51,013 nt of DNA from a virus. Its lineage: Duplodnaviria; Caudoviricetes. Location of the stretch: positions 1 through 51,013 of the IMG/VR virus record IMGVR_UViG_3300045837_000026, one strand, 5' to 3'. The position numbers and the translations under genes are program-made. The notes below the pieces were generated by a model, which ran no database searches, had not been told where the DNA came from, and worked only from the letters and a program-made list of their open reading frames with translations. Below, piece after piece: positions 1-28,210 of this stretch; the first letter of the stretch is position 1; every line of letters begins with the position of its first letter.

Positions 1-233
1 ACTTCGCTTGGGCCGACCCGGCGAGCGTGAACACGAGTCAGGCGAGCCAATCCGGTTGGCAGATTGGTTTTGTCCACCGTGAAAACAATGCCATCATCAC
101 GCAGTTCCTTGCGGAATATGCGTACCTAATTCCGGGCGGATATCCGGTGACGTTGTTCTCTCAGGGCGATTTCTGGGCCAAGTTCCTGAGCGGTGCAGTG
201 CCCGGTCAGTCCGTGTATGCGGACAGCGTGACC
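1..233. repeat. Terminal direct repeat (circular assembly overlap), left copy
   Basis: Matches 50781-51013 except one base (A128 vs G50908; CTA/CTG, synonymous Leu). Confidence 0.97.
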
Positions 234-559: not shown

Positions 560-1138
560 ATGGGTTTTCAGACGATCATCAATCGGCAGCCGGGGCTTGC
601 GGTTGAGGGCGATTTCGCCGACGCGAACGTGCGGGCCAACGTGCTCGCGCCCCCTTCGGTGCCGAATCAGGGGCCGAGCGGATATCCCGGCGCGGCCGGC
701 GTTGTCGCAATGATTGCGGCGCCGCTTGCCCTCACGTCTGGGCTCTTGCCCGTAATCGGGTATTTCGCGTGGCTCGACCAAGTGACCGGGTACGTGCAGC
801 TCTCGAACAACGTGCCGGGCGGCGACGGAGCGGCGAAAATCGGATTCGTGGGACGCCAAGGCAATCTGGCCAACGCGGCGATGTTGCAGCAGTTTCTCGC
901 GGATGACACTCTGCTTGTGCTGCCCGGCCGTGAAATCACGCTCTATGACCAGGGCTCATTTTGGGGCCGCTTCGCTGGCGGCGCGACAGTCGGTCAGAAA
1001 GTGTTTGCCGGCAATGGTGCGGCACAGCTCGCGTCGGCCGCAGCCGGGGCTGTCGTGCCCGGCTACATCGAAACCAATTTCTACGTGGACAGCCCGGCCG
1101 GCAACGGCGAGCTTGCCAAATTCTCAACCTGGGGTTAA
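560..1138 (+). CDS. Capsid decoration/cement protein paralog 3
   Basis: MGFQ..IN.QPG.AVEGDFA.AN start; GFVGR, GSFW, GQKVFA and ELAKFSTW motifs; immediately upstream of the major capsid gene. Confidence 0.8.
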   Translation: MGFQTIINRQPGLAVEGDFADANVRANVLAPPSVPNQGPSGYPGAAGVVAMIAAPLALTSGLLPVIGYFAWLDQVTGYVQLSNNVPGGDGAAKIGFVGRQGNLANAAMLQQFLADDTLLVLPGREITLYDQGSFWGRFAGGATVGQKVFAGNGAAQLASAAAGAVVPGYIETNFYVDSPAGNGELAKFSTWG

Positions 1139-7780: not shown

Positions 7781-7989
7781 GGGTTGCGGCTACAGTCGGG
7801 CCGGACGTAAAGCTCATCGAGTATGTCAACCTTCCCCGTATCATCGGCACGCTAGTATCGAGTAAAATAGCCACGCTCGCGGAATTGCAAACCGTTTACG
7901 GCGTGGAAGATGCGTATAACCTGCTCGAAGTCGTTACGGTCGATTGTGTGAACCAGCGAATCTTAAACGCCCATGCCGACCGTAATTGA
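7747..7989 (+). CDS. -1 frameshift extension of the tail chaperone (gpGT analogue)
   Basis: G GGT TTT heptamer at 7747-7753; the -1 frame stays open to TGA 7987-7989 (..YVNLPRIIGTLVSSKIATLAELQTVYGVEDAYNLLEV..). Confidence 0.8.
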   Translation, partial: GFFLGRRTPDLGVAATVGPDVKLIEYVNLPRIIGTLVSSKIATLAELQTVYGVEDAYNLLEVVTVDCVNQRILNAHADRN

Positions 7990-9460
7990 CAGCCTCGCCG
8001 TTGAACTCGGCTTAGACCCGAAGAAATTCAAGAAGGGTTTACAGGAAGCCGCGAAAGACACGAAGGAAACGGAAAACGTTGTAGTAAAAGCGGCCGACCA
8101 TATGGTCGGAGCGCTTCACCGCGTCGCTACAGAATTCCTCGGGCTGTTCCTTGTCGTTCGGTCCGTCAGCGACGTTGTTGATTTCTTCGCGAACCTCAAC
8201 GAATCAACACGTCAGCTCGGAATCAACTCGCGAAATTTCGGCGTAGCCGCGAATGAGCTTCGCTCGTTGGGCAACGTCGCAGAGCTTGCAGGCGGCCAAG
8301 CGGATGATGCGCTCAAAACCGTTCAGGGGTTGACTCAGGCCGAGTTCAACCGTGAGCGCGGGTTTGGCGGCAATGACGAACGTTTGCAGACTCTCGCATA
8401 TCTGGGCGTTCCTTTCCAGGGCGAGCATGGCGGGCTCCGGGACATCAAGGGGATACTCCTTGATTTGAACCGTGTGTTGCAGCGGTTGCCTCAACCCGAG
8501 CGGTTACAGTTCGCGCAGAAAGCCGGCATACAGGGAGGGCTCGGGCTCGCCGTCGCAGAAGACCCCTCGAAGTTCCGTGCATATCTCGCGGAGCAGGAGC
8601 GGCAAATTGCGCTGCGCAAGCAGGATACCGACGCGGCCGAACGACTCGCGCGCGCATGGCTCTTGCTGCGTCAGGAAATGGAGCGGATTGCAACTCGCAT
8701 CCTGACGGATATTTCGCCAGCATTGGAGAAGCTGTTCCGACGCATTGGCGATTTTGTGACTACGCATCAAGGCGACATCACAAAAGGGTTTGACAAGGTA
8801 CTCGAATGGTTTAACGGCCCAGGACCGGGCCATGTCATTGACGCGTTGGTTCAAATAGGCGACGCGGCTATGAACGTCGCGAAGGCAATAAACGACATCG
8901 CTGAATTCTGGTTTGGAAAAACTGACAAGCCCGGCGAGGCGGCGATTGAGCCTGGAGTCAAACAAGGCTCTCTCCGTAGCCGCATCGAAGCCGCAATGGC
9001 CGTGCGGGGCGATATCAGCAAAATTGACGAGGTGCAGCTACGGGAATTATCCGGGCGTCATCGTGTTCCGGTCAATGTGTTGACTCAGGTACCGGGCGGA
9101 ATCAGCGGTGAGGAAGCCGCACGAGCGCTTGAGATTCTGCACGGCCGAGTCGGCGGCGACAAAGGCGACCCGGATTGGTCCAAGACTCTTGCCGAGTTCA
9201 AGCGTCGAACCGTGTTCACGGCCCCAAACCCGAACGCGTTGAATTCGGCACGCGGTGCCGTTCCTACCCCGAACGTGCCCCGCCGCCCCGCTGCGAACGA
9301 CTCAAAGCCAACGGCCATGAACTCGGGTACGAGCGTGCAAATCGACAACATGACGATCAATACTCGTGCGACGGATGCAAACGGTATCGCGGCAGATATG
9401 AATAGCGCGTTGCGTCGCAAACTCATGGTCGCACAAGCTGACGTTGGCATGGTGGCGTAA
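7973..9460 (+). CDS. Tape measure protein (495 aa)
   Basis: MPTVIDSL.VELGLD start, helical composition, C-terminal VQIDNMTINT.ATDANGIA.D motif; position. Confidence 0.85.
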   Translation: MPTVIDSLAVELGLDPKKFKKGLQEAAKDTKETENVVVKAADHMVGALHRVATEFLGLFLVVRSVSDVVDFFANLNESTRQLGINSRNFGVAANELRSLGNVAELAGGQADDALKTVQGLTQAEFNRERGFGGNDERLQTLAYLGVPFQGEHGGLRDIKGILLDLNRVLQRLPQPERLQFAQKAGIQGGLGLAVAEDPSKFRAYLAEQERQIALRKQDTDAAERLARAWLLLRQEMERIATRILTDISPALEKLFRRIGDFVTTHQGDITKGFDKVLEWFNGPGPGHVIDALVQIGDAAMNVAKAINDIAEFWFGKTDKPGEAAIEPGVKQGSLRSRIEAAMAVRGDISKIDEVQLRELSGRHRVPVNVLTQVPGGISGEEAARALEILHGRVGGDKGDPDWSKTLAEFKRRTVFTAPNPNALNSARGAVPTPNVPRRPAANDSKPTAMNSGTSVQIDNMTINTRATDANGIAADMNSALRRKLMVAQADVGMVA

Positions 9461-10152
9461 TGGCAATCCCGCCAGTCATCAAGGTTCCGCAATTCCCGAA
9501 CGTCCCGGCTTTGGCCGGTGTGCCGCAGCTCGCGCGGCTTCCGAACGTTCCACTGTCGTCCATTATTGCCTCAATTGGCAATGCGGCGATTCAGGGCCGA
9601 CTGTGGCACGCCGTCAAACAGGCTCCGAAATGGGGTGTGTTTGACGCGAGTAATAACCCCGTCGTCATTCCTGACAACATTGTTGATTTTCACAATTCGG
9701 ATGATTCGCGGGTTTCTAACTTCCCGGTACAAGACGGTCAGTTTGCGGCCTACAACAAGGTGGCGCTACCTTCGGAAACCGTTGTTAGGATGACGAAGGC
9801 GGGAACTCAGAGTGACAGGAAGGCGTTTCTTGACGCGCTCAAAGCGGCGAAAGATTCTCTCAACCTGTACACCATTCTGACACCCGAGCGTAGTTATCTG
9901 AAATGCAACTTGCAGCGGTTCGAGGTTATCCGTTCGGGTCCAATCGGTGCATACTTTCTCGCCGAAGTTGATTTGTTTTTCATCGAGATTAAACAGGTCA
10001 GCTCGACGTACTCGAACGCGGTGGCGAATACGCAGAACGCGCAGAATCCCGAAGCGCAGCCGTTCGGAAACTTGGGCAACGTGGCTCCGCAGGCGACTAG
10101 CACGTCAGACCAAGCGGCGGTTACGGCATCGGGCGTTACAGGGCAGCACTGA
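9460..10152 (+). CDS. Baseplate/tail tube initiator protein
   Basis: S.VSNFPVQDG.FAAYNKV and LYTILTPE..Y motifs; follows the tape measure gene. Confidence 0.75.
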   Translation: MAIPPVIKVPQFPNVPALAGVPQLARLPNVPLSSIIASIGNAAIQGRLWHAVKQAPKWGVFDASNNPVVIPDNIVDFHNSDDSRVSNFPVQDGQFAAYNKVALPSETVVRMTKAGTQSDRKAFLDALKAAKDSLNLYTILTPERSYLKCNLQRFEVIRSGPIGAYFLAEVDLFFIEIKQVSSTYSNAVANTQNAQNPEAQPFGNLGNVAPQATSTSDQAAVTASGVTGQH

Positions 10153-10454
10153 TGCAAACCATACCGGTTACTGCTGTTCCTTCTCAGTCATTCGCTGTCA
10201 CGTTGGCTAATCAGGCGTGCGCCATTTCGCTTACGACGCGCAACGGCAAACTGTATTTCAGCCTGAGCGTAGGAGGTGTTCCAATCGCGACAATGCGCGT
10301 GTGTCGCAACTCTCAACGGATATTGCTCGACTCGCAGTATCAGGGGTTTGTCGGCGACTTCACGTTTATCGACACGAAGGGCGACACGGACCCCACCTAC
10401 ACGGGTCTCGGCTCTCGCTACAAGCTGATTTACCTTGAGGCGGCCGACCTGTGA
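10152..10454 (+). CDS. Baseplate plug-like protein
   Basis: IP..AVPSQ...VTL.NQ.C.I and GF.GDF.F.DT.G..DP.YTGLGSRY motifs. Confidence 0.75.
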   Translation: MQTIPVTAVPSQSFAVTLANQACAISLTTRNGKLYFSLSVGGVPIATMRVCRNSQRILLDSQYQGFVGDFTFIDTKGDTDPTYTGLGSRYKLIYLEAADL

Positions 10455-11338
10455 ACAGTTTCGACGCGGTAAAGCGGCTGCGCGTGACGCTCACGCTCGG
10501 GCAAGACGGCGCGACATTCCCCGGCACGGATAACAACACTCTCATTCTGTCGGGACTCCGTACCCGTGTGAATATCGAAGGCACCGTGAACTATCCCGGT
10601 ACGGCAGCAGTTCAAATCTACGGCATGCGGCCGGATGATATGAACGCGCTTACAATCGCATGGTTCGCCGGGCTTCGGGTGCCGAATAATTCGATTTTGA
10701 TTGAAGCGAAAGACAACGCGCTTGCCGATCCTGCCGGCTGGTCAGAATTGTTTTTCGGCACGATGGTAGAAGCGCAGCCTGAGTATCGGGGGATTCCCGA
10801 CGCGTATTTCAACATCCTGGCGAACGTCGGTTATTTTGGGAAGCTCTCACCAAACGCGCCGTCGAGCTACGCGCAGCCTACGCCAATCGCTACGGTTGCC
10901 GCCGACCTTGCGTCGAAAATGGGTTTGGCGTTTGAGAATAACGGCGTAACCGGCTCACCAGTCGGACCGTACTTCGCCGGTTCCTACATGGAGCAGCTCA
11001 AAGCCGCGTGTTTACAGGCTGGCGTTGATTTCTACATCGTTTCAAACACGCTCATCATATGCCCCCACAATGGCGCGCGTACAAACTCGCCTGTTATCGA
11101 ACTCAACTCAAATTCGGGGCTCGTGGGCTATCCGGTCATTGATCGATCGGGGGTCACGCTGACTGCGTTGTTCAATCCGGCGTTTGTGGGTGGCGCTCGC
11201 ATCAACTTGACTGGCTCGGCGATTCCGGCCGCTAATCGGCTATGGTCGATTTTCACCGTGCAACACACCCTGGAATCGGTGCTACCGGGCGGCGCATGGT
11301 TTTCGACTTTGCATTGCGTGCCGCAGGGAACTGTATGA
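10451..11338 (+). CDS. Baseplate hub protein
   Basis: IYGM...DMN.LT, FENNGV, GLVGYP and H.LES..PGG.W motifs. Confidence 0.8.
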   Translation: MNSFDAVKRLRVTLTLGQDGATFPGTDNNTLILSGLRTRVNIEGTVNYPGTAAVQIYGMRPDDMNALTIAWFAGLRVPNNSILIEAKDNALADPAGWSELFFGTMVEAQPEYRGIPDAYFNILANVGYFGKLSPNAPSSYAQPTPIATVAADLASKMGLAFENNGVTGSPVGPYFAGSYMEQLKAACLQAGVDFYIVSNTLIICPHNGARTNSPVIELNSNSGLVGYPVIDRSGVTLTALFNPAFVGGARINLTGSAIPAANRLWSIFTVQHTLESVLPGGAWFSTLHCVPQGTV

Positions 11339-11982
11339 CAGCTTCAGCCCAGCAAACCCCCGTCTCGGTTGCTGCCGAATATCCGGCGCTCGCGTTTATC
11401 GTTCAGCAGCTTTTGTCTAAGGTACAAACCGCGTCGGTTGTCAAGGTCCTAGCGGTGCAGCCCGGCGCGGTCGGACCGGTCGGGTATGTGACAGTGCAAA
11501 TTCTGGTCAATCAAATGACCGGCGATCGAACAGCCGTGCCTCATGGGTCGATACCGAACATCCCCTATTTCCGGCTCCAGGGCGGTACCAATGCCGTGAT
11601 TATCGACCCCCAAGTAGGTGACCTGGGAATATGCCTGTTCTGCTCTCGCGATATTGCGAACGTCAAGGCGACGAAGGCGCAGGCGAACCCAAGCACGTTC
11701 CGCATGTTCGACTTCAACGACGGGCTGTACGTCGGCGGCATCTTGAACGGTACACCTCAGCAATACGTGCAGTTTGCGGCCGGGGGTATCACTATCGTGT
11801 CGCCGCAGCAGATTACGTTGCAGGCGCCAACGGTGAACATTCAGGGGTCGAGCGCGGTGAACATCGGAAGCCCCGCCACGGCCCTTACAGGCGGCAATAC
11901 GAGCATTGACGGGAAGGCATTTTTGCCGCATAAGCATAGCGGTGTGCAGCCCGGCAGCGGTCAATCCGGGGGTGTCGTCTGA
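11335..11982 (+). CDS. Baseplate central spike (Gp138-like)
   Basis: ATGA overlap; PYFRLQGG.NAVI.DP.VGD.G motif; C-terminal HxH (PHKHSGV). Confidence 0.88.
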   Translation: MTASAQQTPVSVAAEYPALAFIVQQLLSKVQTASVVKVLAVQPGAVGPVGYVTVQILVNQMTGDRTAVPHGSIPNIPYFRLQGGTNAVIIDPQVGDLGICLFCSRDIANVKATKAQANPSTFRMFDFNDGLYVGGILNGTPQQYVQFAAGGITIVSPQQITLQAPTVNIQGSSAVNIGSPATALTGGNTSIDGKAFLPHKHSGVQPGSGQSGGVV

Positions 11983-12338
11983 TGGACACGCTTTTGCTCG
12001 ACGTGGGCCTTTGGGACCTGTGCTTAGACGCCAACGGGAATATTGCGCTCGCCTCAGTGCCGTACGCCCGCGCCCAGGACGTGGCGAGCGCAATTCGGTT
12101 GTTCCTGGGGGAACTATGGTACGACTCAACCAAGGGGATTGACTATTTCGGTCAGATACTTGGCGACACTCCGCCCCTTACCCTATTTCAAGAATTCATG
12201 GTCACGGCCGCGTTGACCGTTCCGGGTGTCGTCACGGCTTCGTGCGTGGTAGAATCCTTCGATGACGCCGCGCGCACCGTGACCGGACAGGTGACTTTTA
12301 CGGACGTGGACGGCAACACGTCAACGGTGAGCATTTAG
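11982..12338 (+). CDS. Baseplate wedge/sheath initiator (gp25-like)
   Basis: WDL.LDA.GNIA and AQDVASAIRLF.GELWYD...GI.Y motifs. Confidence 0.8.
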   Translation: MDTLLLDVGLWDLCLDANGNIALASVPYARAQDVASAIRLFLGELWYDSTKGIDYFGQILGDTPPLTLFQEFMVTAALTVPGVVTASCVVESFDDAARTVTGQVTFTDVDGNTSTVSI

Positions 12339-12340
12339 CG

Positions 12341-13561
12341 ATGACGGACACGAACGTTCCCGGCCTTGAATTCACGAGTACCGGCCTGACGGTGCCCAGC
12401 GAGCCGGCCGTTCTCGCAGGCGTGCAAGCCGATTACAACTCCGCGTTCGGCGGAAATCTCAACCCGTCGCTCGAAACCCCCCAAGGTCAGCTCGCCAGCT
12501 CTACAGCGGCGATCATTTCAGACGCGAACAGTATTTTTGCCGAATTCGTTAACCAAGTCAATCCCGACACGGCCGACGGGTTCATGCAAGACGCTATTGC
12601 CCGTATCTACTTCCTGAATCGCAATGCGGGCGCTCCCACGTCGGTGCAGTGCGTGTGCGTGGGCCAAGCTGGTGTTCCGATCCCGACCGGCGCGCGGGCG
12701 CAGGACACGAGCGGCAACATGTACGTGTGTACCCAAGGCGGCACTATCCCGGCTGGGGGCTCCATTACGTTGTCGTTCGCGAACGTGGTGAACGGTCCAA
12801 TTGCTTGCCCGGCCAACACGCTAACGACCATTTTCACGGCTGTGAACGGCTGGGAGTCAATTAACAATCCGGCTCCTGGCATCGTCGGTACAAACGTCGA
12901 ATCGCGAGCAGCGTTCGAGTTCCGACGTTCCCAATCGGTCGCGTTGAATGCTCACGGTTCGTTGCCGTCGATTTATGCGGCTGTGTTTGCGGTCCCCAAC
13001 GTGCTCGACGTGTATGCGTACGAGAATACGACTAATAACCCGATCACGGTGGGCTCGACTTCCTACACGCTCGCGCCCCACTCATTGTATGTCGCGGCGG
13101 TCGGCGGCGATCCCAATGCCATCGCACAGGCGATATGGTCGAAGAAAGATGTTGGTTGCGACTACAACGGCAACACGTCCGTTATCGTTACGGATACCAG
13201 CGGTTACAGCATTCCGTATCCGTCGTACACGGTGAAGTTCAACGTGCCAACGACGCTTCCTATTTACTTCGCGGTACAAATCGCGAACAGTGCGAGTCTG
13301 CCGTCCAATATCGTGTCGTTGGTCCAAAACGCGGTCGTGAATGCGTTTACAGGGGCGGATGGCAGCACGCGCGTACGTATCGGCTCATTGCTGCTCGCGA
13401 GCAAGTTTTATGGACCAGTCGCAGCGATCGGTCCCGAGGTTTCGATTCTGTCAATTCTGCTCGGCACGAGCGCGGGCGGCGCGACGCTGAACAGCTTGCA
13501 AATTGGGATTGACCAAGCCCCGACCATTTCAGCCGCCAATGTAGCCGTGACGCTTGTATGA
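12341..13561 (+). CDS. Baseplate J-like wedge protein
   Basis: LETPQGQL, NPDTADG.MQDAI.RIYF and ESRA.FE.RR motifs. Confidence 0.9.
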   Translation: MTDTNVPGLEFTSTGLTVPSEPAVLAGVQADYNSAFGGNLNPSLETPQGQLASSTAAIISDANSIFAEFVNQVNPDTADGFMQDAIARIYFLNRNAGAPTSVQCVCVGQAGVPIPTGARAQDTSGNMYVCTQGGTIPAGGSITLSFANVVNGPIACPANTLTTIFTAVNGWESINNPAPGIVGTNVESRAAFEFRRSQSVALNAHGSLPSIYAAVFAVPNVLDVYAYENTTNNPITVGSTSYTLAPHSLYVAAVGGDPNAIAQAIWSKKDVGCDYNGNTSVIVTDTSGYSIPYPSYTVKFNVPTTLPIYFAVQIANSASLPSNIVSLVQNAVVNAFTGADGSTRVRIGSLLLASKFYGPVAAIGPEVSILSILLGTSAGGATLNSLQIGIDQAPTISAANVAVTLV

Positions 13562-14628
13562 CCGTTCAGGTTCCTAATCTTGTCGGGTTGGATACGACAA
13601 CGGCCACGGCCGTACTTGCAGGGTACGGCCTTGTGCTGGGCACGACTTCGCAGGTTTATAGCTCGACCGTTACGACTGGTCTGATTGTCTCGACGAGCCC
13701 TATTGCGGGAACAAACGTTGCGGCCGGCTCGGCTGTCAACATCGTACTGTCTCAAGGGCCGCAACCGGGGCTTGTCCCGAACATCGTGGGGCTTACTCAG
13801 GCGCAGGCGCAAATTGCGCTCGCAACGGTAGGACTCACAACGGGATCGGTCACGCCCGAGTTAAGCGATTCTATACAGCCCGGTTCGATTTCGAGCCAAC
13901 ACCCGACCCCCGGTACGCTGCTTGCGGTCGGATCGGCTGTCAATGTTGGCTTGTCCGTGTTCGACTTGCCGTTTGACTACAACAAAACGATTATAAGCCA
14001 GTACGCAAACAGTCCAACATTGCTTCGTCTCATTTCCAACATGTTGGCGTATATCGACCCGCGCGCGAACTTTCAGGCGTTCTATCAATTCGTCTGGAAT
14101 GTCGATACTGCTGTCGGGTTCGGGCTAGACATTTGGGGAAAAATCGTAGGCGTTTCGCGTCTGATTCAGCTCTCGTCGAATATCAAGACGTTCGGCTACC
14201 AAAATGCGGATGTTCCGCCCGATTGGCAACCGTTTGGTCAAGGTACGTTCACGAGTGGAGCGGCAAGCGCTCAGGCGTACTTACTACCGGATGACGCGTA
14301 TAGGACCCTGATACTTGCGAAGGCTCTAGCGAATATCAGCGCCACGACAGCCCCGGCGTTGAATCAACTTTTGCGCAACCTGTTTCCGGGGCGTGGACGT
14401 TGCTACGTTATCGACTCCGGCGCGATGACGATGCATTTCGTTTTCGAGTTCGCGCTCAGCAACGTCGAGTTCGCGATACTCTCTCAGTCGGGCGCGCTCC
14501 CGCACCCCGCAGGCGTCGGGTACAACGTCATCGTGATTCCCCCGGCGCAATACTTTGGATTCGCCGAACAGGGCTCGGCCGTTCTGCCGTGGGGCAGCGG
14601 CGTTTACTACTTGCCTCCACAGGTTTAA
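13558..14628 (+). CDS. DUF2612-type baseplate wedge protein with two N-terminal PASTA-like domains
   Basis: Two repeats VPN(L/I)VGL..G(L/S)I.S..P..GT....GSAVN...S, then TIISQYANSP, TAVGFGLDIWG.IVGVSR, L.DDAYR.LI..KA.ANI and LPHPAGV. Confidence 0.85.
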   Translation: MTVQVPNLVGLDTTTATAVLAGYGLVLGTTSQVYSSTVTTGLIVSTSPIAGTNVAAGSAVNIVLSQGPQPGLVPNIVGLTQAQAQIALATVGLTTGSVTPELSDSIQPGSISSQHPTPGTLLAVGSAVNVGLSVFDLPFDYNKTIISQYANSPTLLRLISNMLAYIDPRANFQAFYQFVWNVDTAVGFGLDIWGKIVGVSRLIQLSSNIKTFGYQNADVPPDWQPFGQGTFTSGAASAQAYLLPDDAYRTLILAKALANISATTAPALNQLLRNLFPGRGRCYVIDSGAMTMHFVFEFALSNVEFAILSQSGALPHPAGVGYNVIVIPPAQYFGFAEQGSAVLPWGSGVYYLPPQV

Positions 14629-14631
14629 GAC

Positions 14632-15945
14632 ATGGGCGCACCAAAACCGCCAGTAATACCGGAACCGTTTGCGAACAACGCAACGTCGAGTTACAAAAAC
14701 ACGATTCCCGATACGACCGTCGCGGCCGGCGCGGCTTCGTGGTCATTGGGATTCCCACCCGTCACGATGCAGCCCGAAGTGTCTGGCGGTGTGCCTCCGT
14801 TCGGTCAGGATTTCAACGGCGTTCTGTTTGCGCTGTCTGCTCACGACTACTACGTGCAGGCAGGACAGCTCTACACATGGGATGCGGGCGTTGTAGCTGA
14901 CATCGGCGGCTATGCGGTCGGGGCTGTGCTCGCAAGCACGGACGGAACGACGGTTTGGTACAACACTGTCGCAAACAACTCGACGAACCCGGATAATGAT
15001 TCAACGGCGGCCGGCTGGGTGCCGATCGCGGCGTACGGGTTTACAAACGTAACGGGGCTGACCGGTGGCAATGTTACGCTCGCGCCGTCGCAAACTCGCA
15101 AAAGCGTCATTGTGTTGACTGGTACGCTGACCAGTAACCTCAATCTGATTCTACCGACGACCAAACAGCAATGGTTGATTGTCAATCAGACATCGGGCAA
15201 TTTCGTTACGACGGCCAAAACGGCGGCCGGTTCGGGCGTAGTCATTCCGCAAGGCGGCTTTGGGTCACCGGTTGGCGTGTACGGGGACGGTACCAATATT
15301 TACCCGACCGTCGCGCCGCTGAGCGTGCCGATTGACCAAAACCCGAACCCGCTGACAATCGCGGAGCGTGACAACACGGGGCTTCTGCAAGCCAGCTATT
15401 TCCTCGCGACAAGCGGTTGGGAGAATCCTTCCCTACAGCCGTTTCAGGGTTTCATCGGCCTGGGGCCGGATGACGCGACGTACCGTAAGTACCACATTGC
15501 CGACGTGGAAGCCGCGATGTTGTTGCAGAACATTGGCGGTGCGGTTACTCCGTCGCAGGTGCCGCTTCTGTCGTCAATGCCCGGTGGCGTTACCCCGTCA
15601 CAGGTTCCGGCGCTCTCAGCTCTGCTCGGTTCCGTGTTGCCTGGGCAGGTTCCATCAGGCGCCGTGACTCAATTTTTCACTCAGTCGCTCGGTCAAACGG
15701 GCTGGTGTCAATTCCCGAACGGTCTGATTATCCAATGGGGATATGCAACGGGCGGTCAAAATATCAACGTCAGTTTCCCGAAAGTGTTTCCCAACGCTGC
15801 GTTCGCAGGTTTTTGTAATACAGCGAATCGTAACTTTATGGGCGGTCAGGGAACCAACTTCGTGTGGGGTCTCACTCAGTTTGGTATGGGAATCACGGTT
15901 GACCCGACTCCCGGCCAAGGCTATTGGCTTGCAATAGGTTATTAA
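14632..15945 (+). CDS. Tail fibre protein 1
   Basis: GFPP.TM.P...GG.PP.GQDFNG.L and IGGY..GAVL baseplate anchor; C-terminal GW..FPNGLIIQWG...FP..FPN tip domain. Confidence 0.85.
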   Translation: MGAPKPPVIPEPFANNATSSYKNTIPDTTVAAGAASWSLGFPPVTMQPEVSGGVPPFGQDFNGVLFALSAHDYYVQAGQLYTWDAGVVADIGGYAVGAVLASTDGTTVWYNTVANNSTNPDNDSTAAGWVPIAAYGFTNVTGLTGGNVTLAPSQTRKSVIVLTGTLTSNLNLILPTTKQQWLIVNQTSGNFVTTAKTAAGSGVVIPQGGFGSPVGVYGDGTNIYPTVAPLSVPIDQNPNPLTIAERDNTGLLQASYFLATSGWENPSLQPFQGFIGLGPDDATYRKYHIADVEAAMLLQNIGGAVTPSQVPLLSSMPGGVTPSQVPALSALLGSVLPGQVPSGAVTQFFTQSLGQTGWCQFPNGLIIQWGYATGGQNINVSFPKVFPNAAFAGFCNTANRNFMGGQGTNFVWGLTQFGMGITVDPTPGQGYWLAIGY

Positions 15946-15946
15946 C

Positions 15947-16681
15947 ATGCCCGGACAACCGAACCCTGTAAAAATGGTAGAGGCGTTTGGCGTCAACGCT
16001 GCGTCTGCCTACATTACAAAACCCTTCCCGGTTAGCTCGCAGATTGGGGTAACACCGGGTCGAGCGTCACTCAACGACGGTTTCGTGCCGTTGAATATGA
16101 CGCCACCCTCGGCCGGGGGCATCCCACCGTCGGGTGCGGACATGAACGGTATTTTGTACCTCATGTCTACCAACATCGCCGCGTTGTCTGCCGGTCAGGT
16201 GTTCAACGTTTTCGACGCGGCATACGCGGCGGCCATCGGCGGCTATGCTGTGGGAGCCGTATTGGCTCAATCTGTGGACGCTTCCGCGCGTTGGGTCAAT
16301 CTCATTGCCGGCAACACGACCAACCCGGACACGGGCGGCGCTGGGTGGATGTCCACAAAACCGCTGTACGCGTCGTTCACTGCTGCTTCGGGCAGCAACA
16401 ATAACGTAACGCTTGGAGGCGCCAGCGATTATGTGCTCGACGTGGATTGTACAGCCGGCAACGTGTCACTCACGGGGCTGGTAGCTCAGCGCGACGGCCA
16501 GCGTGTGACGATCGTTCGCAAAGACGCCACCGCAAACACGTTGACACTAACGTCAAACGACGCAAGCTCGACAGCGGCGAATCGTTTCCGTATCGTGTCC
16601 GGGGGGCTCGGGCTTCCGCTCCAGTATATGACCGTGACCCTTCAGTACAGCTCAACATTAGCTCTTTGGGTGCAAGCATGA
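15947..16681 (+). CDS. Short tail fibre/adaptor protein, paralog of the fibre 1 N-terminus
   Basis: GF.PLNM.P..AGG.PP.G.DMNG.L and IGGYAVGAVL shared with the preceding gene. Confidence 0.8.
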   Translation: MPGQPNPVKMVEAFGVNAASAYITKPFPVSSQIGVTPGRASLNDGFVPLNMTPPSAGGIPPSGADMNGILYLMSTNIAALSAGQVFNVFDAAYAAAIGGYAVGAVLAQSVDASARWVNLIAGNTTNPDTGGAGWMSTKPLYASFTAASGSNNNVTLGGASDYVLDVDCTAGNVSLTGLVAQRDGQRVTIVRKDATANTLTLTSNDASSTAANRFRIVSGGLGLPLQYMTVTLQYSSTLALWVQA

Positions 16682-18738
16682 TTCGTTCCGCTTTCGTTCG
16701 ACTTCTCGCGGCGGCATTGATCGCCGTTGCTCCGACCAGTTACGCGCAGCTCTATCCGTATTTCGGGCCATCCAATGGCATCATGAAGGGCTCGACAAGC
16801 ACGCCGCAAACTTCGGCGGCTACGAGTACGGATGTCATCGGCCTATTCTCGGGATCCTGTACCGCGTCTACGTTTGTGCGTGGGGACGGCTCGTGTCAGA
16901 TCGTAGCAGGCGGTATCACGGGGCTGGCGAATCCGACAGGAACTATCGGCCTGTCAGCGGTGAACGGCTCTGCTACGACGGCGTTGCGTTCTGACGGCGC
17001 TCCGGCACTGTCGCAGGGTATCAGCCCGACATGGACCGGAACGCACATGTTCGCAGGCGGGATTATCGGCGGAGTCACCACGGCCGGAGTCAATATCGGT
17101 CAAAGCGCAGGAGCCGCCGTGTTCCGATTCGTGGACACGACAGGTCCGGCCAACGGCAAAGCGTGGCAGTTCAACACCTCCACGACTGGCACCGTGTTCA
17201 ACATGGGTGCGATTTCGGATGATTTTTCCACTACGTTCCGAAACTTTTTAACAGCTACGCGCTCAGCGGGATCGATTGCTAACTTGTCGTTTGGGAATCC
17301 GACGGACAGCCCAACGTATAATTTCAACGGCACTGGAACAGCAACTTTTGGCGGTGCCGTGTCGGTAAGCGGCGGCGGAAGTTTGCTCAAAGGGCCGGTT
17401 ACTGTTTCGGTTCCGACTTCAGGAAATCCGTTGACGGTCGTCACAACGACCGGTGCGTTTGGCAGCTCCGCATCCACCGTATCAGACGGCGTGAACTATA
17501 CGATTGCGCTCGGTCGAAGCGGCACGACTGGAAGTGTTGGCTACGTCGGCGGCGCGAGCGGGTCTCAGCTCGACATCGGGGCGAGTGGCACGGCATGGGC
17601 TCGGCTCAACACATCAGGTAACTGGACATTCAACACGCCGTCTAGTGGCGCTGCCGTAACGGTCAATGCTTCTGGCGCCTCACCGGCTTTAACCCTAAAT
17701 GGGGCCGGAGCAACGCAGCTTACAGCGTTGCAGTTACAGCAGTCGGGGCAATCAGCTTGGCAGCTTTACCAAGCGGCTTCTAGCAGCACATTGCATTTGT
17801 GGAACGGTAGCAGCGGCGACGTAATGACCGTTACCAATGCTGGCAACGTAGGGGTCAACGCCGCCAGCAGCGGAAGCTCCTTGACTGTCAATCAGGCCAA
17901 CGGTAACGCGTCCCCAACTCTACAATTGTCCGGGCCGGCTAGTACCGCGGTGTCTCTGGGGATTTCACAGACTTCGGGCGGTAACTGGCAAATTTATAAC
18001 CCGGCTGGGTCTACGAGCTTGCGCTTGTACGATGGCTCCGGCGATAGAGTTATATTCAACACTGGAGGCGGCGCCACATTCAACGCTCCTACCAGCGGTA
18101 CGACTGTTACCGCAAACGGGCTTGCTGGACAGTACGGCGTCGTTGTGAACGGGTCTTCTACTGCCTCGCAGTCGTTGGGCGCCCGAGTATTCGCCGGTAC
18201 AAATTCGAGTGATTTCAATCTGGCGTTAACGAACCAAACCGGTACTACTAACTTCATGCTCGTTCACGGTGACGGCGGAATAGAAGTCGGTTCACCGACG
18301 GGCGGGGATAAAGGCGCCGGTACGATTAATGCGCAAAACCTGTATGTAAATGGTGTAGCGGTCGGCGGAGGCGGCGTAACGCAAACAAGCGGAAACACGT
18401 CTATTACAACTACGTCGGGCTGCACAGTTAATCAAAGTATGACGGTGAATTGGGTAGTCACCGGAAAACAGGTAACAGTTAGCTACCCCGGTGTTGCTTG
18501 CACTGCAAGCGGCACATCAGGGCTTGCATTCACACTTAACGGGCTGCCTGCGGCGATTAGGCCCACGACGCAAGGTACAAGCGTGGTTATGGTTGTGGAT
18601 AATGGGACGGCAAAAGCAGCAACGGGGGCTATAGATTCGGGCGGAACTCTGAATATTCTGACGGGTGCGGGCTCTTTTTCTGGTACCGGAACCTTCACTC
18701 TTAGCCGCGGCACCATTTCTTACGATACGGACAACTAA
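16678..18738 (+). CDS. Gly/Ser/Thr-rich fibre- or adhesin-like protein with predicted Sec signal peptide (686 aa)
   Basis: ATGA-coupled start; MIRSAFVRLLAAALIAVAPTSYA|Q leader; internal beta repeats; GSPTGGDKGAGTINA..LYVNG and GLPAAIRP fibre-like motifs. Confidence 0.75.
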   Translation: MIRSAFVRLLAAALIAVAPTSYAQLYPYFGPSNGIMKGSTSTPQTSAATSTDVIGLFSGSCTASTFVRGDGSCQIVAGGITGLANPTGTIGLSAVNGSATTALRSDGAPALSQGISPTWTGTHMFAGGIIGGVTTAGVNIGQSAGAAVFRFVDTTGPANGKAWQFNTSTTGTVFNMGAISDDFSTTFRNFLTATRSAGSIANLSFGNPTDSPTYNFNGTGTATFGGAVSVSGGGSLLKGPVTVSVPTSGNPLTVVTTTGAFGSSASTVSDGVNYTIALGRSGTTGSVGYVGGASGSQLDIGASGTAWARLNTSGNWTFNTPSSGAAVTVNASGASPALTLNGAGATQLTALQLQQSGQSAWQLYQAASSSTLHLWNGSSGDVMTVTNAGNVGVNAASSGSSLTVNQANGNASPTLQLSGPASTAVSLGISQTSGGNWQIYNPAGSTSLRLYDGSGDRVIFNTGGGATFNAPTSGTTVTANGLAGQYGVVVNGSSTASQSLGARVFAGTNSSDFNLALTNQTGTTNFMLVHGDGGIEVGSPTGGDKGAGTINAQNLYVNGVAVGGGGVTQTSGNTSITTTSGCTVNQSMTVNWVVTGKQVTVSYPGVACTASGTSGLAFTLNGLPAAIRPTTQGTSVVMVVDNGTAKAATGAIDSGGTLNILTGAGSFSGTGTFTLSRGTISYDTDN

Positions 18739-18744: not shown

Positions 18745-18981
18745 ATGGACACGGAATACAAAGTTGGAGCGCTCGAAGCTCACGTGAAAGCCCTTCAGAC
18801 GGATGTCGCCGAAATCAAGGCGGACCAGAAGGAGCAAAACAAGATGCTCAAAGCGTTAGTTAGCGATATGGACCAACGCAAGGGTGTCAAAAAGGCCATC
18901 GCCGGTATGGTCACAACGGGAAGTATTTTCGGTGGGCTCGTCGGTTGGTTCCTTGAGCATTTCGTGTTGGGGAAACATTGA
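18745..18981 (+). CDS. Putative holin-like membrane protein
   Basis: Coiled-coil N-terminus plus C-terminal hydrophobic helix; directly upstream of the endolysin. Confidence 0.55.
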   Translation: MDTEYKVGALEAHVKALQTDVAEIKADQKEQNKMLKALVSDMDQRKGVKKAIAGMVTTGSIFGGLVGWFLEHFVLGKH

Positions 18982-19508
18982 TGGACCGCGCGCAGGCTAT
19001 CGCGTTGATGTTGCGGCTCGAAGGCGGCTACGTGGATCGTCCCGACGATCCGGGCGGCGCCACCAAGTACGGCATCACGCAAAAGCGACTCGACAGCCTG
19101 CGCGGAACGTTCCTGTCGTTACCTGCCAACGTGCGCGACCTGACGCCTGAGCAAGCAACGGGCATATACGGCGCCGTGCAATGGCGGCTGATTGCCGGCG
19201 ACCAGCTTGCGCCAGCCCTCGCGTGCCTGCTGCTCAACGCAGCCGTGAACTATGGCGAACCGACGGCTGTCATGCTGCTTCAGGAATGCGTCGGCGTGAA
19301 ACCTGACGGCGCAATGGGTCCGCGCACGCTCGCCGCCGTTGCCACGTGGCGTTCGGCCTATCTTCCCGAGCAGACACTACCGGAAGAGTTCGCCGCGCAC
19401 TGCGCCGTGCGGTATGCGCGCCTCGATGGACGACTTGACCAATTTGAGCTAGGATGGATGCGCCGACTTTTCCGCGTGTATACCTTAGCCATTTCGGAGC
19501 ATGCATGA
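18981..19508 (+). CDS. Endolysin, glycoside hydrolase family 108
   Basis: EGGYVD.PDDPGGATKYGIT motif; AVN.G, DG..GP.TLAA and F..GW..R motifs. Confidence 0.92.
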   Translation: MDRAQAIALMLRLEGGYVDRPDDPGGATKYGITQKRLDSLRGTFLSLPANVRDLTPEQATGIYGAVQWRLIAGDQLAPALACLLLNAAVNYGEPTAVMLLQECVGVKPDGAMGPRTLAAVATWRSAYLPEQTLPEEFAAHCAVRYARLDGRLDQFELGWMRRLFRVYTLAISEHA

Positions 19509-20182
19509 AATCCTTGACTCTACCTCACGCGCTTGCGTATCTGTTCGGGATTGGCGCCGCGGCGCTGCCCGTTGTTCAGCAGTTTGCACCCACTCTCGTG
19601 CCGGGGCCGACCGGGCTCGCTATCGCGGGCGGAGCCGGCGCGCTTCTCGCGTTCGGGCATCAGCTCTACACCATGTACCAGAGCAGCCAGAACGGCACCG
19701 TACCGGCGCCGAGTCCCGGCGCTGTCGTCAAAGTATTGCCGCTCTTGCTGACTGCCGCGCTCGTTGCGAGCCTGTGCGGGTCGCTTTCGGCATGCAAGAC
19801 GCTTCCGAGTGCCACTCAGCAGGCGGGCATTTCCGCAGCGGTGACTGTGGCGACCGGGGAGGCCATTCAGCAGGGCTCGACCGATTCTGTCACGTGGCGC
19901 AACCGGGCCGAGCAATTCCGAGCCATTGCGGTACAGGTCAAGGCGGTGAACGATGCGGGTAGCGCATCCCTGGCCACGCTGGCGGCCGATCTACAGCCGC
20001 AGCTCGCCAAGCTCGGGCCGGCCGACGTTATCGCCGCCAATGCGCTCGTAGCGGCTTTGACGCCCTACCTCGACGCGGAAATCAAGGCCCACCCGGAAGT
20101 CGGTAACGCGCAGGCGACCGTTGATCTGATTCTCGCGGCCGTCATTCAGGCGTGCGACGCGTACATTCCGATGACGGCCTGA
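19505..20182 (+). CDS. Lysis-region membrane protein with internal lipobox
   Basis: ATGA overlap; two N-terminal hydrophobic segments, a third ending in LSA-C (Cys97), then a helical domain. Confidence 0.6.
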   Translation: MKSLTLPHALAYLFGIGAAALPVVQQFAPTLVPGPTGLAIAGGAGALLAFGHQLYTMYQSSQNGTVPAPSPGAVVKVLPLLLTAALVASLCGSLSACKTLPSATQQAGISAAVTVATGEAIQQGSTDSVTWRNRAEQFRAIAVQVKAVNDAGSASLATLAADLQPQLAKLGPADVIAANALVAALTPYLDAEIKAHPEVGNAQATVDLILAAVIQACDAYIPMTA

Positions 20183-20619
20183 TGTTCCTGTCGCCTCTCA
20201 CGCTCCGCGCCGATCCGTTACCCGACAGGTGGATCGTCGCGGAGCCTTTGGTGTGGCAAGACCGTCTGTACGGTCGTATCGTCGTTCCAGTCGGCTTCCG
20301 TACCGACCTTGCCTCTACCCCCTTCCATGTTGACGACAACGGTCCGAGCCGGCGCCCTGCGGCCACGCACGACGCGCTGTACAAGCTCTATCGGCGCCTT
20401 GGGAAAGATTTCGCCGACCAGTTTCTACGGGACGCGATCCTCGCGGACGGCGGCGGCCGGTTCCGGGCTCAGGTGTACTATCGGGCGGTGCAATGGTTCG
20501 GCGGCCGGGCCTGGGCCGAAGACGGCGCACCGGTGACGGCGGCCGACTTCGATACTCCAGCCAATTTCGCCGCATGGCAGCTCGCCAGCGGATGGCGCAC
20601 AGGCCGCGCGGCGGGTTAA
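20182..20619 (+). CDS. DUF1353-family protein
   Basis: VP.GF.TDLAS.P, AA.HD.LY, AD..LR and YRAV..FG motifs. Confidence 0.85.
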   Translation: MFLSPLTLRADPLPDRWIVAEPLVWQDRLYGRIVVPVGFRTDLASTPFHVDDNGPSRRPAATHDALYKLYRRLGKDFADQFLRDAILADGGGRFRAQVYYRAVQWFGGRAWAEDGAPVTAADFDTPANFAAWQLASGWRTGRAAG

Positions 20620-23421: not shown

Positions 23422-23475
23422 ATGATGCCTTGATTTGACGGTACCGTCAAGTCTGGTTTTGTGACCCGCGTCAAT
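23422..23475 (-). promoter_or_regulatory. Promoter TTGACG-N17-CATCAT with perfect palindrome and CRP-like box
   Basis: TTGACGGTACCGTCAA at 23435-23450; TGTGA-N6-TCAAT at 23460-23475. Confidence 0.72.
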
Positions 23476-25818: not shown

Positions 25819-26832
25819 TTACACCATGTACCCGTTGTCGCGCAACGCTTGGTCGGTCCAGCCAGCACTACGGAATGCGGCATACGTGGTGCCGTTCGCC
25901 TTGGCTGTCATTTGCGGGCCGGCCGGGGGTGTCGGAGCCGCAGGGGGCGCGGGCGGCGGCGTAATATTCGGGACCGGGACGCCCGGAGCACCCAGGAACC
26001 CCGCGTACGGCTGCACAGCGGCCGGCGCAGGGGCCGCACCGTTTGGCGGCGGTGGAAGGCCGGGCAGCGCTGGCGCGGCGCCTGGGACTCCTACGGACGG
26101 CACAGCCGCAGGAGGCGGAACGAATCCGGTTGATGGAGCCGGAGCTACGCCAGGAGCCGCAGGGGCAGCGCCCGGAAGCGCGCCAGCCGCGCCCATAGCT
26201 CCTACCGGGGTCGCAGACATGCCGGCCGGTGCTGGACCCTGGCCGAAGCCGACCGAGGCGAAATCCGGCCCCTGGACGATTTCCGGCCCATACCCCTGCA
26301 AGGCGATACCCGAATGATTCAGATACACTCCCGGAGTCTGCTGCGACTCGTTGCTGGCCACGTCGCCCAATACCTGTACGTAGTAGCCCGGCTTCACCGC
26401 GTTGGGTTCGAGAATGAACTGCGAGCCGTTGGAGTTCAGGATTTTCGGCGCGAAGGACGAGCCGAACGCAAGTACCCAATGGCCCGGATAGCCTTCGCGG
26501 GTGTTGGGGGCGCGGCCCTTACGGTTCGGTACCGGGCTGTCGCCGTCGGTAATCTTCCACGCGAACGTCGGGGCGTTGGCTTCCCCACGTGGCCACGATG
26601 CCATAGCCGCGTCGTAAATGATTTTGCCCCACGGCGTATGTGCCCAATGCTGTTCGCCGGCTTTGGGAATCGCGAGCCCAAACGGATAATCAACACGGGG
26701 TTTTCCTGCGTTGGGTCCGTTTTTGATGACGAGGGGGCGCCCCTCAGCGTCGGTTGTCTTGGGCTCATATAGATTGCCCCATACGATACGACCGGTAGGT
26801 GTGCGGAAACGTGTGACTTGCGGCGTGCTCAT
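25819..26832 (-). CDS. Single-stranded DNA-binding protein (DUF2815-like) with Pro/Ala-rich tail
   Basis: P.GR.VWG.L, FAWKI.DGD, VKPGYYV.V and PGVYLNH motifs; lies between polymerase and DUF2800 nuclease. Confidence 0.8.
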   Translation of the reverse strand: MSTPQVTRFRTPTGRIVWGNLYEPKTTDAEGRPLVIKNGPNAGKPRVDYPFGLAIPKAGEQHWAHTPWGKIIYDAAMASWPRGEANAPTFAWKITDGDSPVPNRKGRAPNTREGYPGHWVLAFGSSFAPKILNSNGSQFILEPNAVKPGYYVQVLGDVASNESQQTPGVYLNHSGIALQGYGPEIVQGPDFASVGFGQGPAPAGMSATPVGAMGAAGALPGAAPAAPGVAPAPSTGFVPPPAAVPSVGVPGAAPALPGLPPPPNGAAPAPAAVQPYAGFLGAPGVPVPNITPPPAPPAAPTPPAGPQMTAKANGTTYAAFRSAGWTDQALRDNGYMV

Positions 26833-28159: not shown

Positions 28160-28210
28160 ACAAACTCCTAACCGGCACAGGGCGCCGAAGCGCCCCGACC
28201 GTGTTGATTG

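What the first reader, a model, noticed from the sequence alone, without database searches (positions are those of the whole stretch)
13558..13965. Two PASTA-like domains fused to a baseplate wedge protein
Seen: the first ~135 aa form two repeats (VPNLVGLDTTTATAVLAGYGL...GLIVSTSPIAGTNVAAGSAVNIVLS and VPNIVGLTQAQAQIALATVGL...GSISSQHPTPGTLLAVGSAVNVGLS), in frame with a typical DUF2612 body starting near TIISQYANSP. Established: PASTA domains occur in PknB/StkP kinases and penicillin-binding proteins, where some bind muropeptides or lipid II. Inference: the baseplate may display a ring of cell-wall-binding modules. I do not recall this fusion in characterised relatives.
Basis: partly seen in the sequence, partly recalled or inferred. 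Interest (0 to 1): 0.75.

Follow-up and report, generated by a model that had tools for sequence, protein, structure and literature searches.

The report
PASTA-armed phage baseplate wedge protein
An uncultivated contractile-tailed phage carries two PASTA domains, best known from bacterial cell-wall-sensing kinases, on the front of a conserved baseplate wedge protein, most likely as a short outward arm for contacting the cell surface, not as a proven cell-wall binder.

Summary
ORF 13558..14628 (356 aa) encodes two PASTA domains (Pfam E 5e-26; AF2 pLDDT 93-98; best fold match S. aureus PrkC) in frame with a DUF2612 body. That body matches the single-copy wedge "triplex" subunit of simple myovirus baseplates (XM1 gp17, Pam3, E217 gp45). 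The ATG overlaps the stop of the upstream Baseplate_J gene.

The window is a complete 51-kb IMG/VR virus of the E217/XM1/Pam3 type. None of 268 deposited phage records with a DUF2612 gene has the PASTA part. The fusion is frequent in metagenomes: 35 of 119 top protein hits and 27 of the best 80 IMG/VR loci carry 1-4 PASTA units. Many of these have a ConA-like lectin or a propeller-like region further N-terminal.

On a tree of the DUF2612 bodies the extension was gained or lost at least 4-6 times. The nearest PASTA relatives scanned are multi-PASTA surface-type proteins, none with a kinase or PBP domain.

Cultured and prophage relatives are almost all from Gram-negative hosts. Every PASTA unit has the published "non-binder" proline.

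Best reading: a modular arm or stalk on the wedge, headless in this phage. Peptidoglycan binding is unsupported but not excluded.

The parts
13558..14628 (+). Whole gene: PASTA x2 + DUF2612 wedge (triplex) subunit, 356 aa
   Evidence: ORF list; Pfam PASTA E 5.2e-26 and DUF2612 E 8.1e-60; phrog_587 E 2.5e-71; AF2 mean pLDDT 83.7
13564..13755 (+). PASTA unit 1 (aa 3-66)
   Evidence: PF03793 six-frame match E 1.1e-16; pLDDT 95-98; Foldseek 3m9g E 8.2e-12; Pro6 at the signature position
13774..13956 (+). PASTA unit 2 (aa 73-133), the unit next to the body that is present in all aligned fused relatives
   Evidence: PF03793 E 1.5e-13; P74 invariant in 22 aligned fusion proteins
13978..14526 (+). DUF2612 body (aa 141-323), gp7-like triplex subunit
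   Evidence: PF11041 E 8.1e-60; 7kh1 gp17 E 5.6e-6; Foldseek XM1 7kh1_A2, Pam3 7yfz_C, E217 8env_K, Pa193 9b45_1
12341..13561 (+). Upstream Baseplate_J (gp6-like) gene; its stop overlaps the target's ATG (ATGA)
   Evidence: PF04865 E 4e-8; phrog_6 baseplate wedge subunit E 1.7e-56; sequence
11982..12338 (+). Small baseplate wedge subunit; from its position I take it to be the gp25-like sheath initiator (position-based inference)
   Evidence: phrog_120 baseplate wedge subunit E 2.6e-28
14632..15945 (+). Tail fibre gene immediately downstream, the expected partner of the wedge subunit
   Evidence: phrog_12796 tail fiber E 3.7e-66; Gp53-like_C E 4e-10
15947..16681 (+). Second, shorter fibre-like gene that matches the same fibre family over its N-terminal part
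   Evidence: phrog_12796 E 2.8e-29 over aa 6-156

Best explanation
The gene encodes the single-copy subunit of the baseplate wedge triplex: the gp7-like partner of two Baseplate_J subunits, six copies per baseplate. It has acquired an N-terminal arm of two PASTA domains.

The DUF2612 body builds the wedge and anchors the tail fibre. The PASTA pair starts at residue 3 and is predicted to form a straight two-bead rod like the ectodomain of PASTA kinases, projecting from the wedge. In many related uncultivated phages the same position carries 1-4 PASTA beads that link the wedge to a distal lectin-like or propeller-like head. The PASTA array is therefore best read as a modular stalk or adhesion arm, a built-in accessory side fibre.

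This phage has the headless form. Its six short arms most likely make weak, multivalent contacts with surface polysaccharide of a Gram-negative host, or simply act as spacers, when the fibres bring the baseplate down. They are unlikely to sense peptidoglycan.

Shown: the domains, the reading frame, the overlapping start, the homology of the body, and the recurrence and modularity of the fusion. Inferred: copy number, outward projection, host type, ligand.
For: - Domains and frame.
- ATGA overlap with the Baseplate_J gene.
- AF2 model with PASTA pLDDT 93-98. Foldseek's best hit is S. aureus PrkC PASTA 3m9g (E 8.2e-12, rmsd 2.8 over 133 columns, the linear kinase-type arrangement), while PBP2x/PBP1 pairs superpose at rmsd ~16.
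- Body matches XM1 gp17, Pam3, E217, Pa193, Mu, pyocin R2 and diffocin triplex chains.
- XM1 paper, passages read: one gp17 with two gp16 per wedge, N-terminal helix-turn-helix in the core bundle, spikes attached through gp17. E217 paper, passages read: triplex of 2 gp44 + 1 gp45, fibre gp46 bound to a gp45 loop.
- Recurrence: 35 of 119 non-self top hits carry PF11041+PF03793. All 35 were confirmed with up to 4 separately scored PASTA stretches, and 7 also have Laminin_G_3 further N-terminal. 27 of the best 80 IMG/VR loci have 1-4 PASTA units by my HMM. Pfam confirmed 21 of 22 tested, 6 with Laminin_G_3.
- One relative's 345-aa N-terminus resembles BNR/Ycf48-type propellers (TM 0.66-0.75; a lead only).
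- Tree of 73 DUF2612 bodies needs 6 changes of the PASTA label, at least 4 forced by well-supported branches.
- The top scorers for the PASTA pair among 1.84 billion representatives are multi-PASTA proteins. 0 of the 29 I scanned has a kinase or transpeptidase domain; partners include Laminin_G_3, Ig-like, PKD, cohesin, propellers and beta-helix.
- An Omnitrophota-MAG ORF has DUF2612 + polysaccharide lyase + PASTA + fn3 + beta-helix, with PASTA as an interdomain module.
- A DUF2612 protein can act in receptor binding: phage K8 GP075 variants bind LPS core (passages of PMC9887876).
- Gram-negative host context.
Against: - No ligand was tested, and no solved baseplate has an N-terminal extension on this subunit, so outward projection of the arm is an inference. 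The AF2 pTM of 0.47 means the position of the PASTA pair relative to the body is not predicted.
- This phage's protein has no distal head, so "stalk" describes its relatives better than the protein itself.
- The host is unknown. The nearest cultured phages are under 50% identical, and no fused form was found in any of the 61 genome loci whose organism is named.
- PASTA domains of S. aureus PBP1 bind peptidoglycan despite having the "non-binder" proline, so PG binding is not excluded.
- The ranking favours proteins with many repeats, and I scanned only 29 of the 150 listed.
Confidence: 0.55

Rival explanations
1. One reading: the six PASTA pairs form a ring of peptidoglycan-, muropeptide- or lipid II-binding modules that anchor or trigger the baseplate on the cell wall.
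For: Sequence and fold are closest, among solved structures, to kinase PASTAs that bind muropeptides (review passages). S. aureus PBP1 PASTAs bind PG even with the 'non-binder' proline. The host is not known.
Against: Relatives are overwhelmingly from Gram-negative hosts (57 of 61 genome loci are Pseudomonadota; sheath hits), and the endolysin is GH108+PG_binding_3. On such hosts the wedge periphery stays outside the outer membrane. Pro occupies the Arg/Glu signature position in both units, and in 136 of 141 units of 64 fusion proteins (5 gaps, 0 Arg/Glu) (rule). The variable repeat number and distal lectin or propeller heads point to a stalk. The best-scoring PASTA relatives scanned lack kinase and PBP domains.
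Confidence: 0.12
2. The PASTA pair is a purely structural strut within the virion. It docks on the neighbouring wedge, on Baseplate_J or on the folded tail fibres, for example holding fibres in a stowed position, and has no host ligand.
For: PASTA domains of B. subtilis PBP2B act by strengthening a protein-protein interaction (title, abstract and passages). Conservation in the PASTA units is limited to fold-defining residues: 3 invariant columns in the body-proximal unit against about 40 in the body. K8 GP075 interacts with the fibre.
Against: The extension is dispensable: the closest DUF2612-only proteins are 64-72% identical over the body and the label changes at least 4-6 times on the tree. 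Repeat number varies from 1 to 4, and distal lectin-type heads are hard to reconcile with an internal strut.
Confidence: 0.2
3. The two PASTA units are a leftover stalk after loss of a distal head, and now do little.
For: The nearest bodies on the tree (L064 with 3 PASTA, L080 with 2) carry 246-325 aa further N-terminal.
Against: Headless forms recur in several distinct clusters: 356-aa forms P0031, P0068, P0103, P0115, and 285-294-aa one-PASTA forms P0023, P0030, P0035, P0045, P0119. The units keep strong HMM scores and a confident fold. The start codon sits exactly at the first unit and is coupled to the upstream gene.
Confidence: 0.1
4. The PASTA region is not part of the mature protein, and translation starts internally near 13960.
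For: In-frame GTG and TTG codons lie at about 13958 and 13967. DUF2612-only relatives start a few residues before the conserved ISQYANSP motif.
Against: This would leave about 400 nt of open, strongly PASTA-scoring sequence (E 1e-16 and 1e-13) untranslated in a tightly packed operon. The same in-frame architecture appears in dozens of relatives. By eye I see no Shine-Dalgarno-like motif before the internal codons. The ATG overlaps the upstream stop. A minor short isoform cannot be excluded.
Confidence: 0.03

Closest known systems
XM1 gp17, Pam3 wedge chain 7yfz_C, E217 gp45 / K8 GP075 (DUF2612; gp7-like subunit of the wedge triplex in simple myovirus baseplates)
   Same: The body (aa ~141-340) matches by sequence (7kh1 E 5.6e-6) and by fold. 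The gene order is the same: Baseplate_J, this gene, tail fibre. Expected role: one copy per wedge, and the fibre anchor.
   Different: None of these has an N-terminal extension. XM1 gp17 begins directly with the core-bundle helix. None of 268 deposited phage records with this gene has the PASTA part.
PASTA ectodomains of Ser/Thr kinases (S. aureus PrkC/Stk1 3m9g and 3py9; M. tuberculosis PknB)
   Same: Pfam PASTA is well above the cut-off. The fold matches and a linear two-domain arrangement is predicted (rmsd 2.8 over 133 columns to 3m9g).
   Different: There is no kinase, no membrane anchor and no PBP domain. Pro occupies the position where PG-binding kinase PASTAs have Arg or Glu. The domains sit on a virion, and the host is probably Gram-negative.
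Multi-PASTA proteins with adhesin-type domains from metagenomes (unnamed; 442-5204 aa among the top 150)
   Same: These are the highest-scoring relatives of the PASTA pair, 28-54% identical over the best stretch. Here PASTA is used as a repeated bead next to lectin, Ig-like, PKD, cohesin, propeller or beta-helix domains, as in the longer phage fusions.
   Different: They have no DUF2612 and are not known to be viral. Their function and taxa are unknown.
Carbohydrate-binding or Ig-like decorations on phage baseplate and tail proteins ('evolved' Dit/Tal of lactococcal siphophages; Ig-like domains on phage structural proteins). Recalled from memory; no call checked this.
   Same: The principle is the same: an accessory, exchangeable binding or spacer module grafted onto a conserved structural protein, gained and lost among close relatives.
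   Different: The host protein differs (myovirus wedge triplex subunit) and so does the domain type (PASTA). I found no paper describing PASTA in this role.

Membership tests
PASTA domain (PF03793) | Profile match above the curated cut-off | tested here: met
   90.8 bits against a cut-off of 23.2, two stretches; 56.7 and 46.8 bits for the single units
PASTA domain (PF03793) | Small alpha/beta fold (one helix packed on a beta-sheet) matching solved PASTA structures | tested here: met
   AF2 pLDDT 93-98 with a strand-helix-strands pattern; Foldseek 3m9g E 8.2e-12, 5e10 TM(target) 0.74, 3ouv rmsd 1.1 over 67 columns
PASTA kinase / PBP sensor module | Attached to a Ser/Thr kinase or a transpeptidase domain through a membrane anchor | tested here: not met
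   The only other domain is DUF2612. 0 of the 29 best-scoring PASTA relatives scanned has a kinase or transpeptidase domain.
PG-binding PASTA (rule attributed to reference 15 of PMC7654742, as summarised there) | Arg or Glu at the signature position; Pro marks non-binders | tested here: not met
   Pro6 and Pro74 in the window. 136 of 141 units in 64 fusion proteins have Pro, 5 have a gap, 0 have Arg or Glu. I mapped the position through the S. aureus PBP1 linker motif and Pro603/Pro661 quoted in PMC9426605, not through a structural superposition. The same paper shows the rule fails for PBP1.
DUF2612 / gp7-like wedge triplex subunit | Profile match and fold match to solved triplex subunits | tested here: met
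   PF11041 E 8.1e-60; 7kh1 gp17; Foldseek 7kh1_A2, 7yfz_C, 8env_K, 9b45_1, 8v3w_4
DUF2612 / gp7-like wedge triplex subunit | Gene placed between Baseplate_J and the tail fibre gene | tested here: met
   12341..13561 Baseplate_J; 14632..15945 fibre
DUF2612 / gp7-like wedge triplex subunit | One copy with two Baseplate_J copies per wedge; fibre bound through its loops | not testable with these tools
   Inferred from XM1 and E217 structures (passages)
Accessory receptor-binding arm on a baseplate protein | Distal carbohydrate-binding head carried on the extension | tested here: not met
   The window's protein starts with PASTA at aa 3 and has no head. Heads are present in relatives: Laminin_G_3 in 7 of 35 and 6 of 22, plus one propeller-like lead.

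The most novel reading that the evidence does not exclude
The PASTA arms are true cell-wall sensors on a virion. Domains borrowed from bacterial wall-sensing proteins would bind peptidoglycan, lipid II or released muropeptides, either on a host whose wall is exposed or after local outer-membrane breach. They would lock or trigger the baseplate, making this a virion that reads the same signal as the host's PASTA kinases.
Probability: 0.1. Interest if true: 0.8.

Novelty: new variant of a known kind. Interest (0 to 1): 0.45.

Why it matters
The N-terminus of the conserved gp7-like wedge subunit turns out to be an exchange point where soil-type myoviruses plug in arms of PASTA beads, with or without lectin-like heads. 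This adds a domain type to the known set of phage surface decorations. It also adds a receptor-binding candidate beside the tail fibres, which matters for host-range prediction and for engineering E217/PB1-like therapeutic phages, where DUF2612 variants already change host range (PMC9887876). More broadly, PASTA appears to be used well beyond kinases and PBPs as a generic extracellular bead.

Tried and rejected
- Single-protein scan of genome contigs found no relative. I repeated it with alignment A1.
- I looked for the fusion in species-representative genomes and found 0 of 61 DUF2612 loci with an N-terminal PASTA. Apparent long N-terminal matches in Achromobacter loci (L007, L012) were open non-coding frame upstream of an ordinary start.
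- Long open frames upstream of DUF2612 in L115, L123, L132 and L134 gave no further Pfam domain and may not be coding.
- Cluster look-up of the NCBI-sourced fusion proteins gave no names or accessions, so no host clue.
- Earlier-findings look-up by sequence returned nothing.
- The careful tree search did not finish in the time limit, so I used the quick tree (SH-aLRT support only).
- The PG-binder signature test depends on my mapping of the position and on a rule that has a published counter-example, so I give it little weight.
- I did not run a complex prediction. The full triplex exceeds the size limit, and the report makes no specific binding claim that a score would settle.
- Literature searches for PASTA on phage baseplates or tails and for DUF2612 listed no paper describing this fusion. 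I saw only the listings and abstract starts, plus passages of PMC2907695. Subscription journals are not covered.
Full report
**What is there**

The window is a whole IMG/VR virus record of 51,013 bp, estimated complete, with 58.5% G+C.

Pfam finds two PASTA units (PF03793; whole-protein E 5.2e-26, 90.8 bits against a cut-off of 23.2) and DUF2612 (PF11041; aa 141-323, E 8.1e-60). A six-frame scan places the units at 13564-13755 and 13774-13956, with no stop inside. The two units share 27 of 65 residues.

The ATG at 13558 overlaps the TGA of the upstream Baseplate_J gene (ATGA). The next gene starts 3 nt after the stop. This is a tightly coupled operon, and the PASTA part is not an untranslated leader.

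By eye I see no ribosome-binding motif before the in-frame GTG/TTG near 13960. The same in-frame architecture recurs in dozens of relatives (see "How common is the fusion" below). An internal start as the only start is therefore very unlikely, although a minor short isoform cannot be excluded.

**Context**

The neighbouring genes, in order, are:
- tape measure, 7973..9460
- a Pam3 gp18-like plug, 10152..10454
- an E217 gp41-like hub, 10451..11338
- a spike with a spike-type N-terminal domain and a gpV apex motif, both below Pfam's curated cut-offs, 11335..11982
- a small baseplate wedge subunit (phrog_120), which from its position I take to be the gp25-like sheath initiator, 11982..12338
- Baseplate_J, 12341..13561
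- the target gene
- a tail fibre, 14632..15945
- a second, fibre-like gene, 15947..16681
- a large unassigned protein ending at 18738
- a lysis block with a GH108+PG_binding_3 endolysin.

Capsid, neck and sheath genes match E217, XM1 and Pam3 families. This is a simple-baseplate myovirus of that type.

**What the body is**

By sequence, aa 144-338 match XM1 gp17, annotated "baseplate wedge protein" (7kh1, E 5.6e-6). I built an AlphaFold2 model from 120 aligned sequences; its mean pLDDT is 83.7. The body of that model matches XM1 7kh1_A2, Pam3 7yfz_C, E217 8env_K, Pa193 9b45_1, Mu, pyocin R2 and diffocin triplex chains.

In XM1 each wedge holds one gp17 and two gp16. The N-terminal helix-turn-helix of gp17 (residues 1-48) sits in the core bundle, and the tail spikes hang on gp17 (PMC10457771, passages). 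In E217 the triplex is two gp44 plus one gp45, and the fibre gp46 grips a gp45 loop (PMC10329688, passages).

By homology, the window's protein is present six times per baseplate and anchors the fibre. Its PASTA pair is attached directly to the start of the core-bundle helix.

**What the front part is**

The PASTA region is modelled with pLDDT 93-98. Its best solved matches are the three-PASTA region of S. aureus PrkC (3m9g: E 8.2e-12, rmsd 2.8 over 133 columns) and M. tuberculosis PknB PASTA 1-2. The compact PASTA pairs of PBP2x and PBP1 superpose at rmsd about 16.

The prediction is therefore the straight, end-to-end arrangement described for the kinase ectodomains (PMC3601408, passages). 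How the pair sits relative to the body is not predicted (pTM 0.47).

**How common is the fusion**

In deposited phage genomes it is absent:
- 268 of 50,697 records have a DUF2612 relative, and none covers 80% or more of the query.
- Only 3 records match the PASTA pair at all. One is a 386-kb Staphylococcus record and two are faecal fragments.

In metagenomic data it is frequent:
- 35 of the 119 non-self top protein hits carry both families, at lengths of 285-621 aa.
- Pfam confirmed all 35. Up to 4 PASTA stretches score separately, always N-terminal to DUF2612, and 7 have a ConA-like Laminin_G_3 domain still further N-terminal.
- Of 498 IMG/VR relatives the best 80 were kept. 27 of these have 1-4 PASTA units in the same frame by my own HMM: 53 have none, 5 have one, 11 have two, 9 have three and 2 have four.
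- I passed 22 of the 27 to Pfam, leaving out five near-duplicates. 21 were confirmed, 6 with Laminin_G_3 and one with weak BNR/sortilin hits.
- The 345-aa N-terminus of one relative resembles BNR/Ycf48-type beta-propellers in the ESM Atlas (TM 0.66-0.75). This is a lead only.

BFVD holds a few auto-named "PASTA_pknB domain containing protein" entries from uncultured phages, and JGI already labels some hits "DUF2612/PASTA domain". The architecture is therefore visible in databases. I found no paper on it (listings only).

**Modularity**

DUF2612-only proteins of about 217 aa are 64-72% identical to the window's body.

A quick maximum-likelihood tree of 73 distinct bodies (81 rows before removing identical sequences) needs 6 changes of the PASTA label. 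At least 4 of these are forced by well-supported branches. The window groups with L064 (three PASTA units) and L080 (two).

In an alignment of 22 fusion proteins, the unit next to the body is always present. Its invariant residues are few (P74, A84, Q114), against about 40 invariant columns in the body. The extension is thus an accessory, exchangeable module.

**Where the PASTA type comes from**

Against 1.84 billion representatives, the PASTA pair has 21,359 hits at E 0.001 or better. The top 150 are proteins of 442-5204 aa with many PASTA stretches.

Of the 29 I scanned (my own pick across that length range), none has a kinase or transpeptidase domain. Their partners are Laminin_G_3, Ig-like, PKD, cohesin, PQQ/WD40 propellers, beta-helix and InlB B-repeat domains. 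The ranking by summed score favours proteins with many repeats.

An Omnitrophota-MAG ORF of 1644 aa combines DUF2612, a polysaccharide lyase, one PASTA unit, fn3 and a beta-helix. In all of these, PASTA looks like a general extracellular bead.

**Host and the cell-wall idea**

Fifty-seven of the 61 genome loci with a related DUF2612 gene are from Pseudomonadota. The others are Omnitrophota, Syntrophobacteraceae, Phycisphaeraceae and one Corynebacterium MAG. None of these 61 has the N-terminal fusion.

The sheath protein matches 553 phage records. None of the host genera tallied or listed for them is Gram-positive. The best matches are Burkholderia phages at 47.5% identity. The endolysin type fits a Gram-negative host. 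On such a host the wedge periphery stays outside the outer membrane, away from peptidoglycan.

A published rule says PG-binding PASTAs have Arg or Glu at a signature position where non-binders have Pro (PMC7654742, passages). I mapped this position onto the proline of the V-P-x-x-x-G motif that opens each unit, using the S. aureus PBP1 linker and Pro603/Pro661 given in PMC9426605. By that mapping:
- the window has Pro6 and Pro74;
- 136 of 141 units in 64 fusion proteins have Pro, 5 have gaps, and none has Arg or Glu.

The same paper shows that PBP1 PASTAs do bind peptidoglycan, so the rule is weak. PG binding is unsupported but not excluded.

**Most likely mechanism**

The body assembles into the triplex and holds the fibre (homology). 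The PASTA pair forms a short rigid arm at the body's N-terminus (prediction). In relatives, longer arms carry lectin-like or propeller-like heads, a built-in accessory side fibre.

In this phage the arm is headless. It probably gives weak multivalent contact with surface glycans, or acts as a spacer, when the fibres pull the baseplate down (inference).

That a DUF2612 protein can take part in receptor recognition is shown for Pseudomonas phage K8, where GP075 variants bind LPS core oligosaccharide (PMC9887876, passages).

The rival readings are:
- a peptidoglycan-binding ring (0.12);
- an internal strut or fibre dock (0.2);
- a leftover stalk (0.1);
- an untranslated region (0.03).

**Verdict**

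The finding is real and correctly described. The fusion is new relative to characterised phages but common among uncultivated relatives. The cell-wall-binding interpretation is not supported. I rate it a new variant of a known kind (a decorated baseplate protein), of moderate interest.

Noticed in passing
window 27..548, 560..1138, 49646..50638: Three paralogous genes match the XM1 gp53 minor capsid family. The first two also match the E217 gp24 / Pam3 gp6 cement family. They sit at both ends of the linear record, which suggests the record is a permuted copy of a circular or terminally redundant genome.
   Followed up: no
window 14632..15945, 15947..16681, 16678..18738: Two consecutive fibre genes match the same fibre family (phrog_12796), the second over its N-terminal part. 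They are followed by a protein of at least 686 aa, rich in Gly/Ser/Thr, with no Pfam or PHROG match. The phage may carry more than one receptor-binding protein.
   Followed up: partly
window 18745..20619: Lysis block: an XhlA-like small membrane protein; a GH108+PG_binding_3 endolysin; then a 225-aa protein (19505..20182, ATG overlapping the endolysin stop) with hydrophobic segments and an internal lipobox-like motif; then DUF1353. No PHROG matches the 225-aa protein. It could be an unusual spanin or holin.
   Followed up: partly
L020:5224-10155: An Omnitrophota-MAG contig holds a 1644-aa ORF joining DUF2612 (aa 264-442) to a polysaccharide lyase, one PASTA unit, fn3 and a beta-helix. This looks like a wedge subunit fused to a depolymerase-type tailspike.
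   Followed up: partly
proteins P0123-P0272 (representative library): There are very large proteins with up to 32 PASTA repeats and adhesin-type partner domains, and no kinase or PBP domain in the 29 scanned. PASTA seems widely used as a generic extracellular repeat.
   Followed up: partly
window 23474..25738, 26832..28319, 29265..30950, 32306..34210: Replication module on both strands: a weak family-A DNA polymerase match below the cut-off, a DUF2800/PD-(D/E)XK nuclease, a ResIII/helicase, and an NrS-1-like primase-polymerase helix-bundle domain with DUF5906. No integrase was seen among the ORFs scanned.
   Followed up: no
phage records PhiXhv-1, -2, -5, -7, -18, -28 (hits H10, H12-H16): In Xanthomonas phages the tblastn match to the target begins at query residue 103 and spans two annotated features. 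It is probably read-through of the upstream frame and not a PASTA remnant. Not examined further.
   Followed up: no
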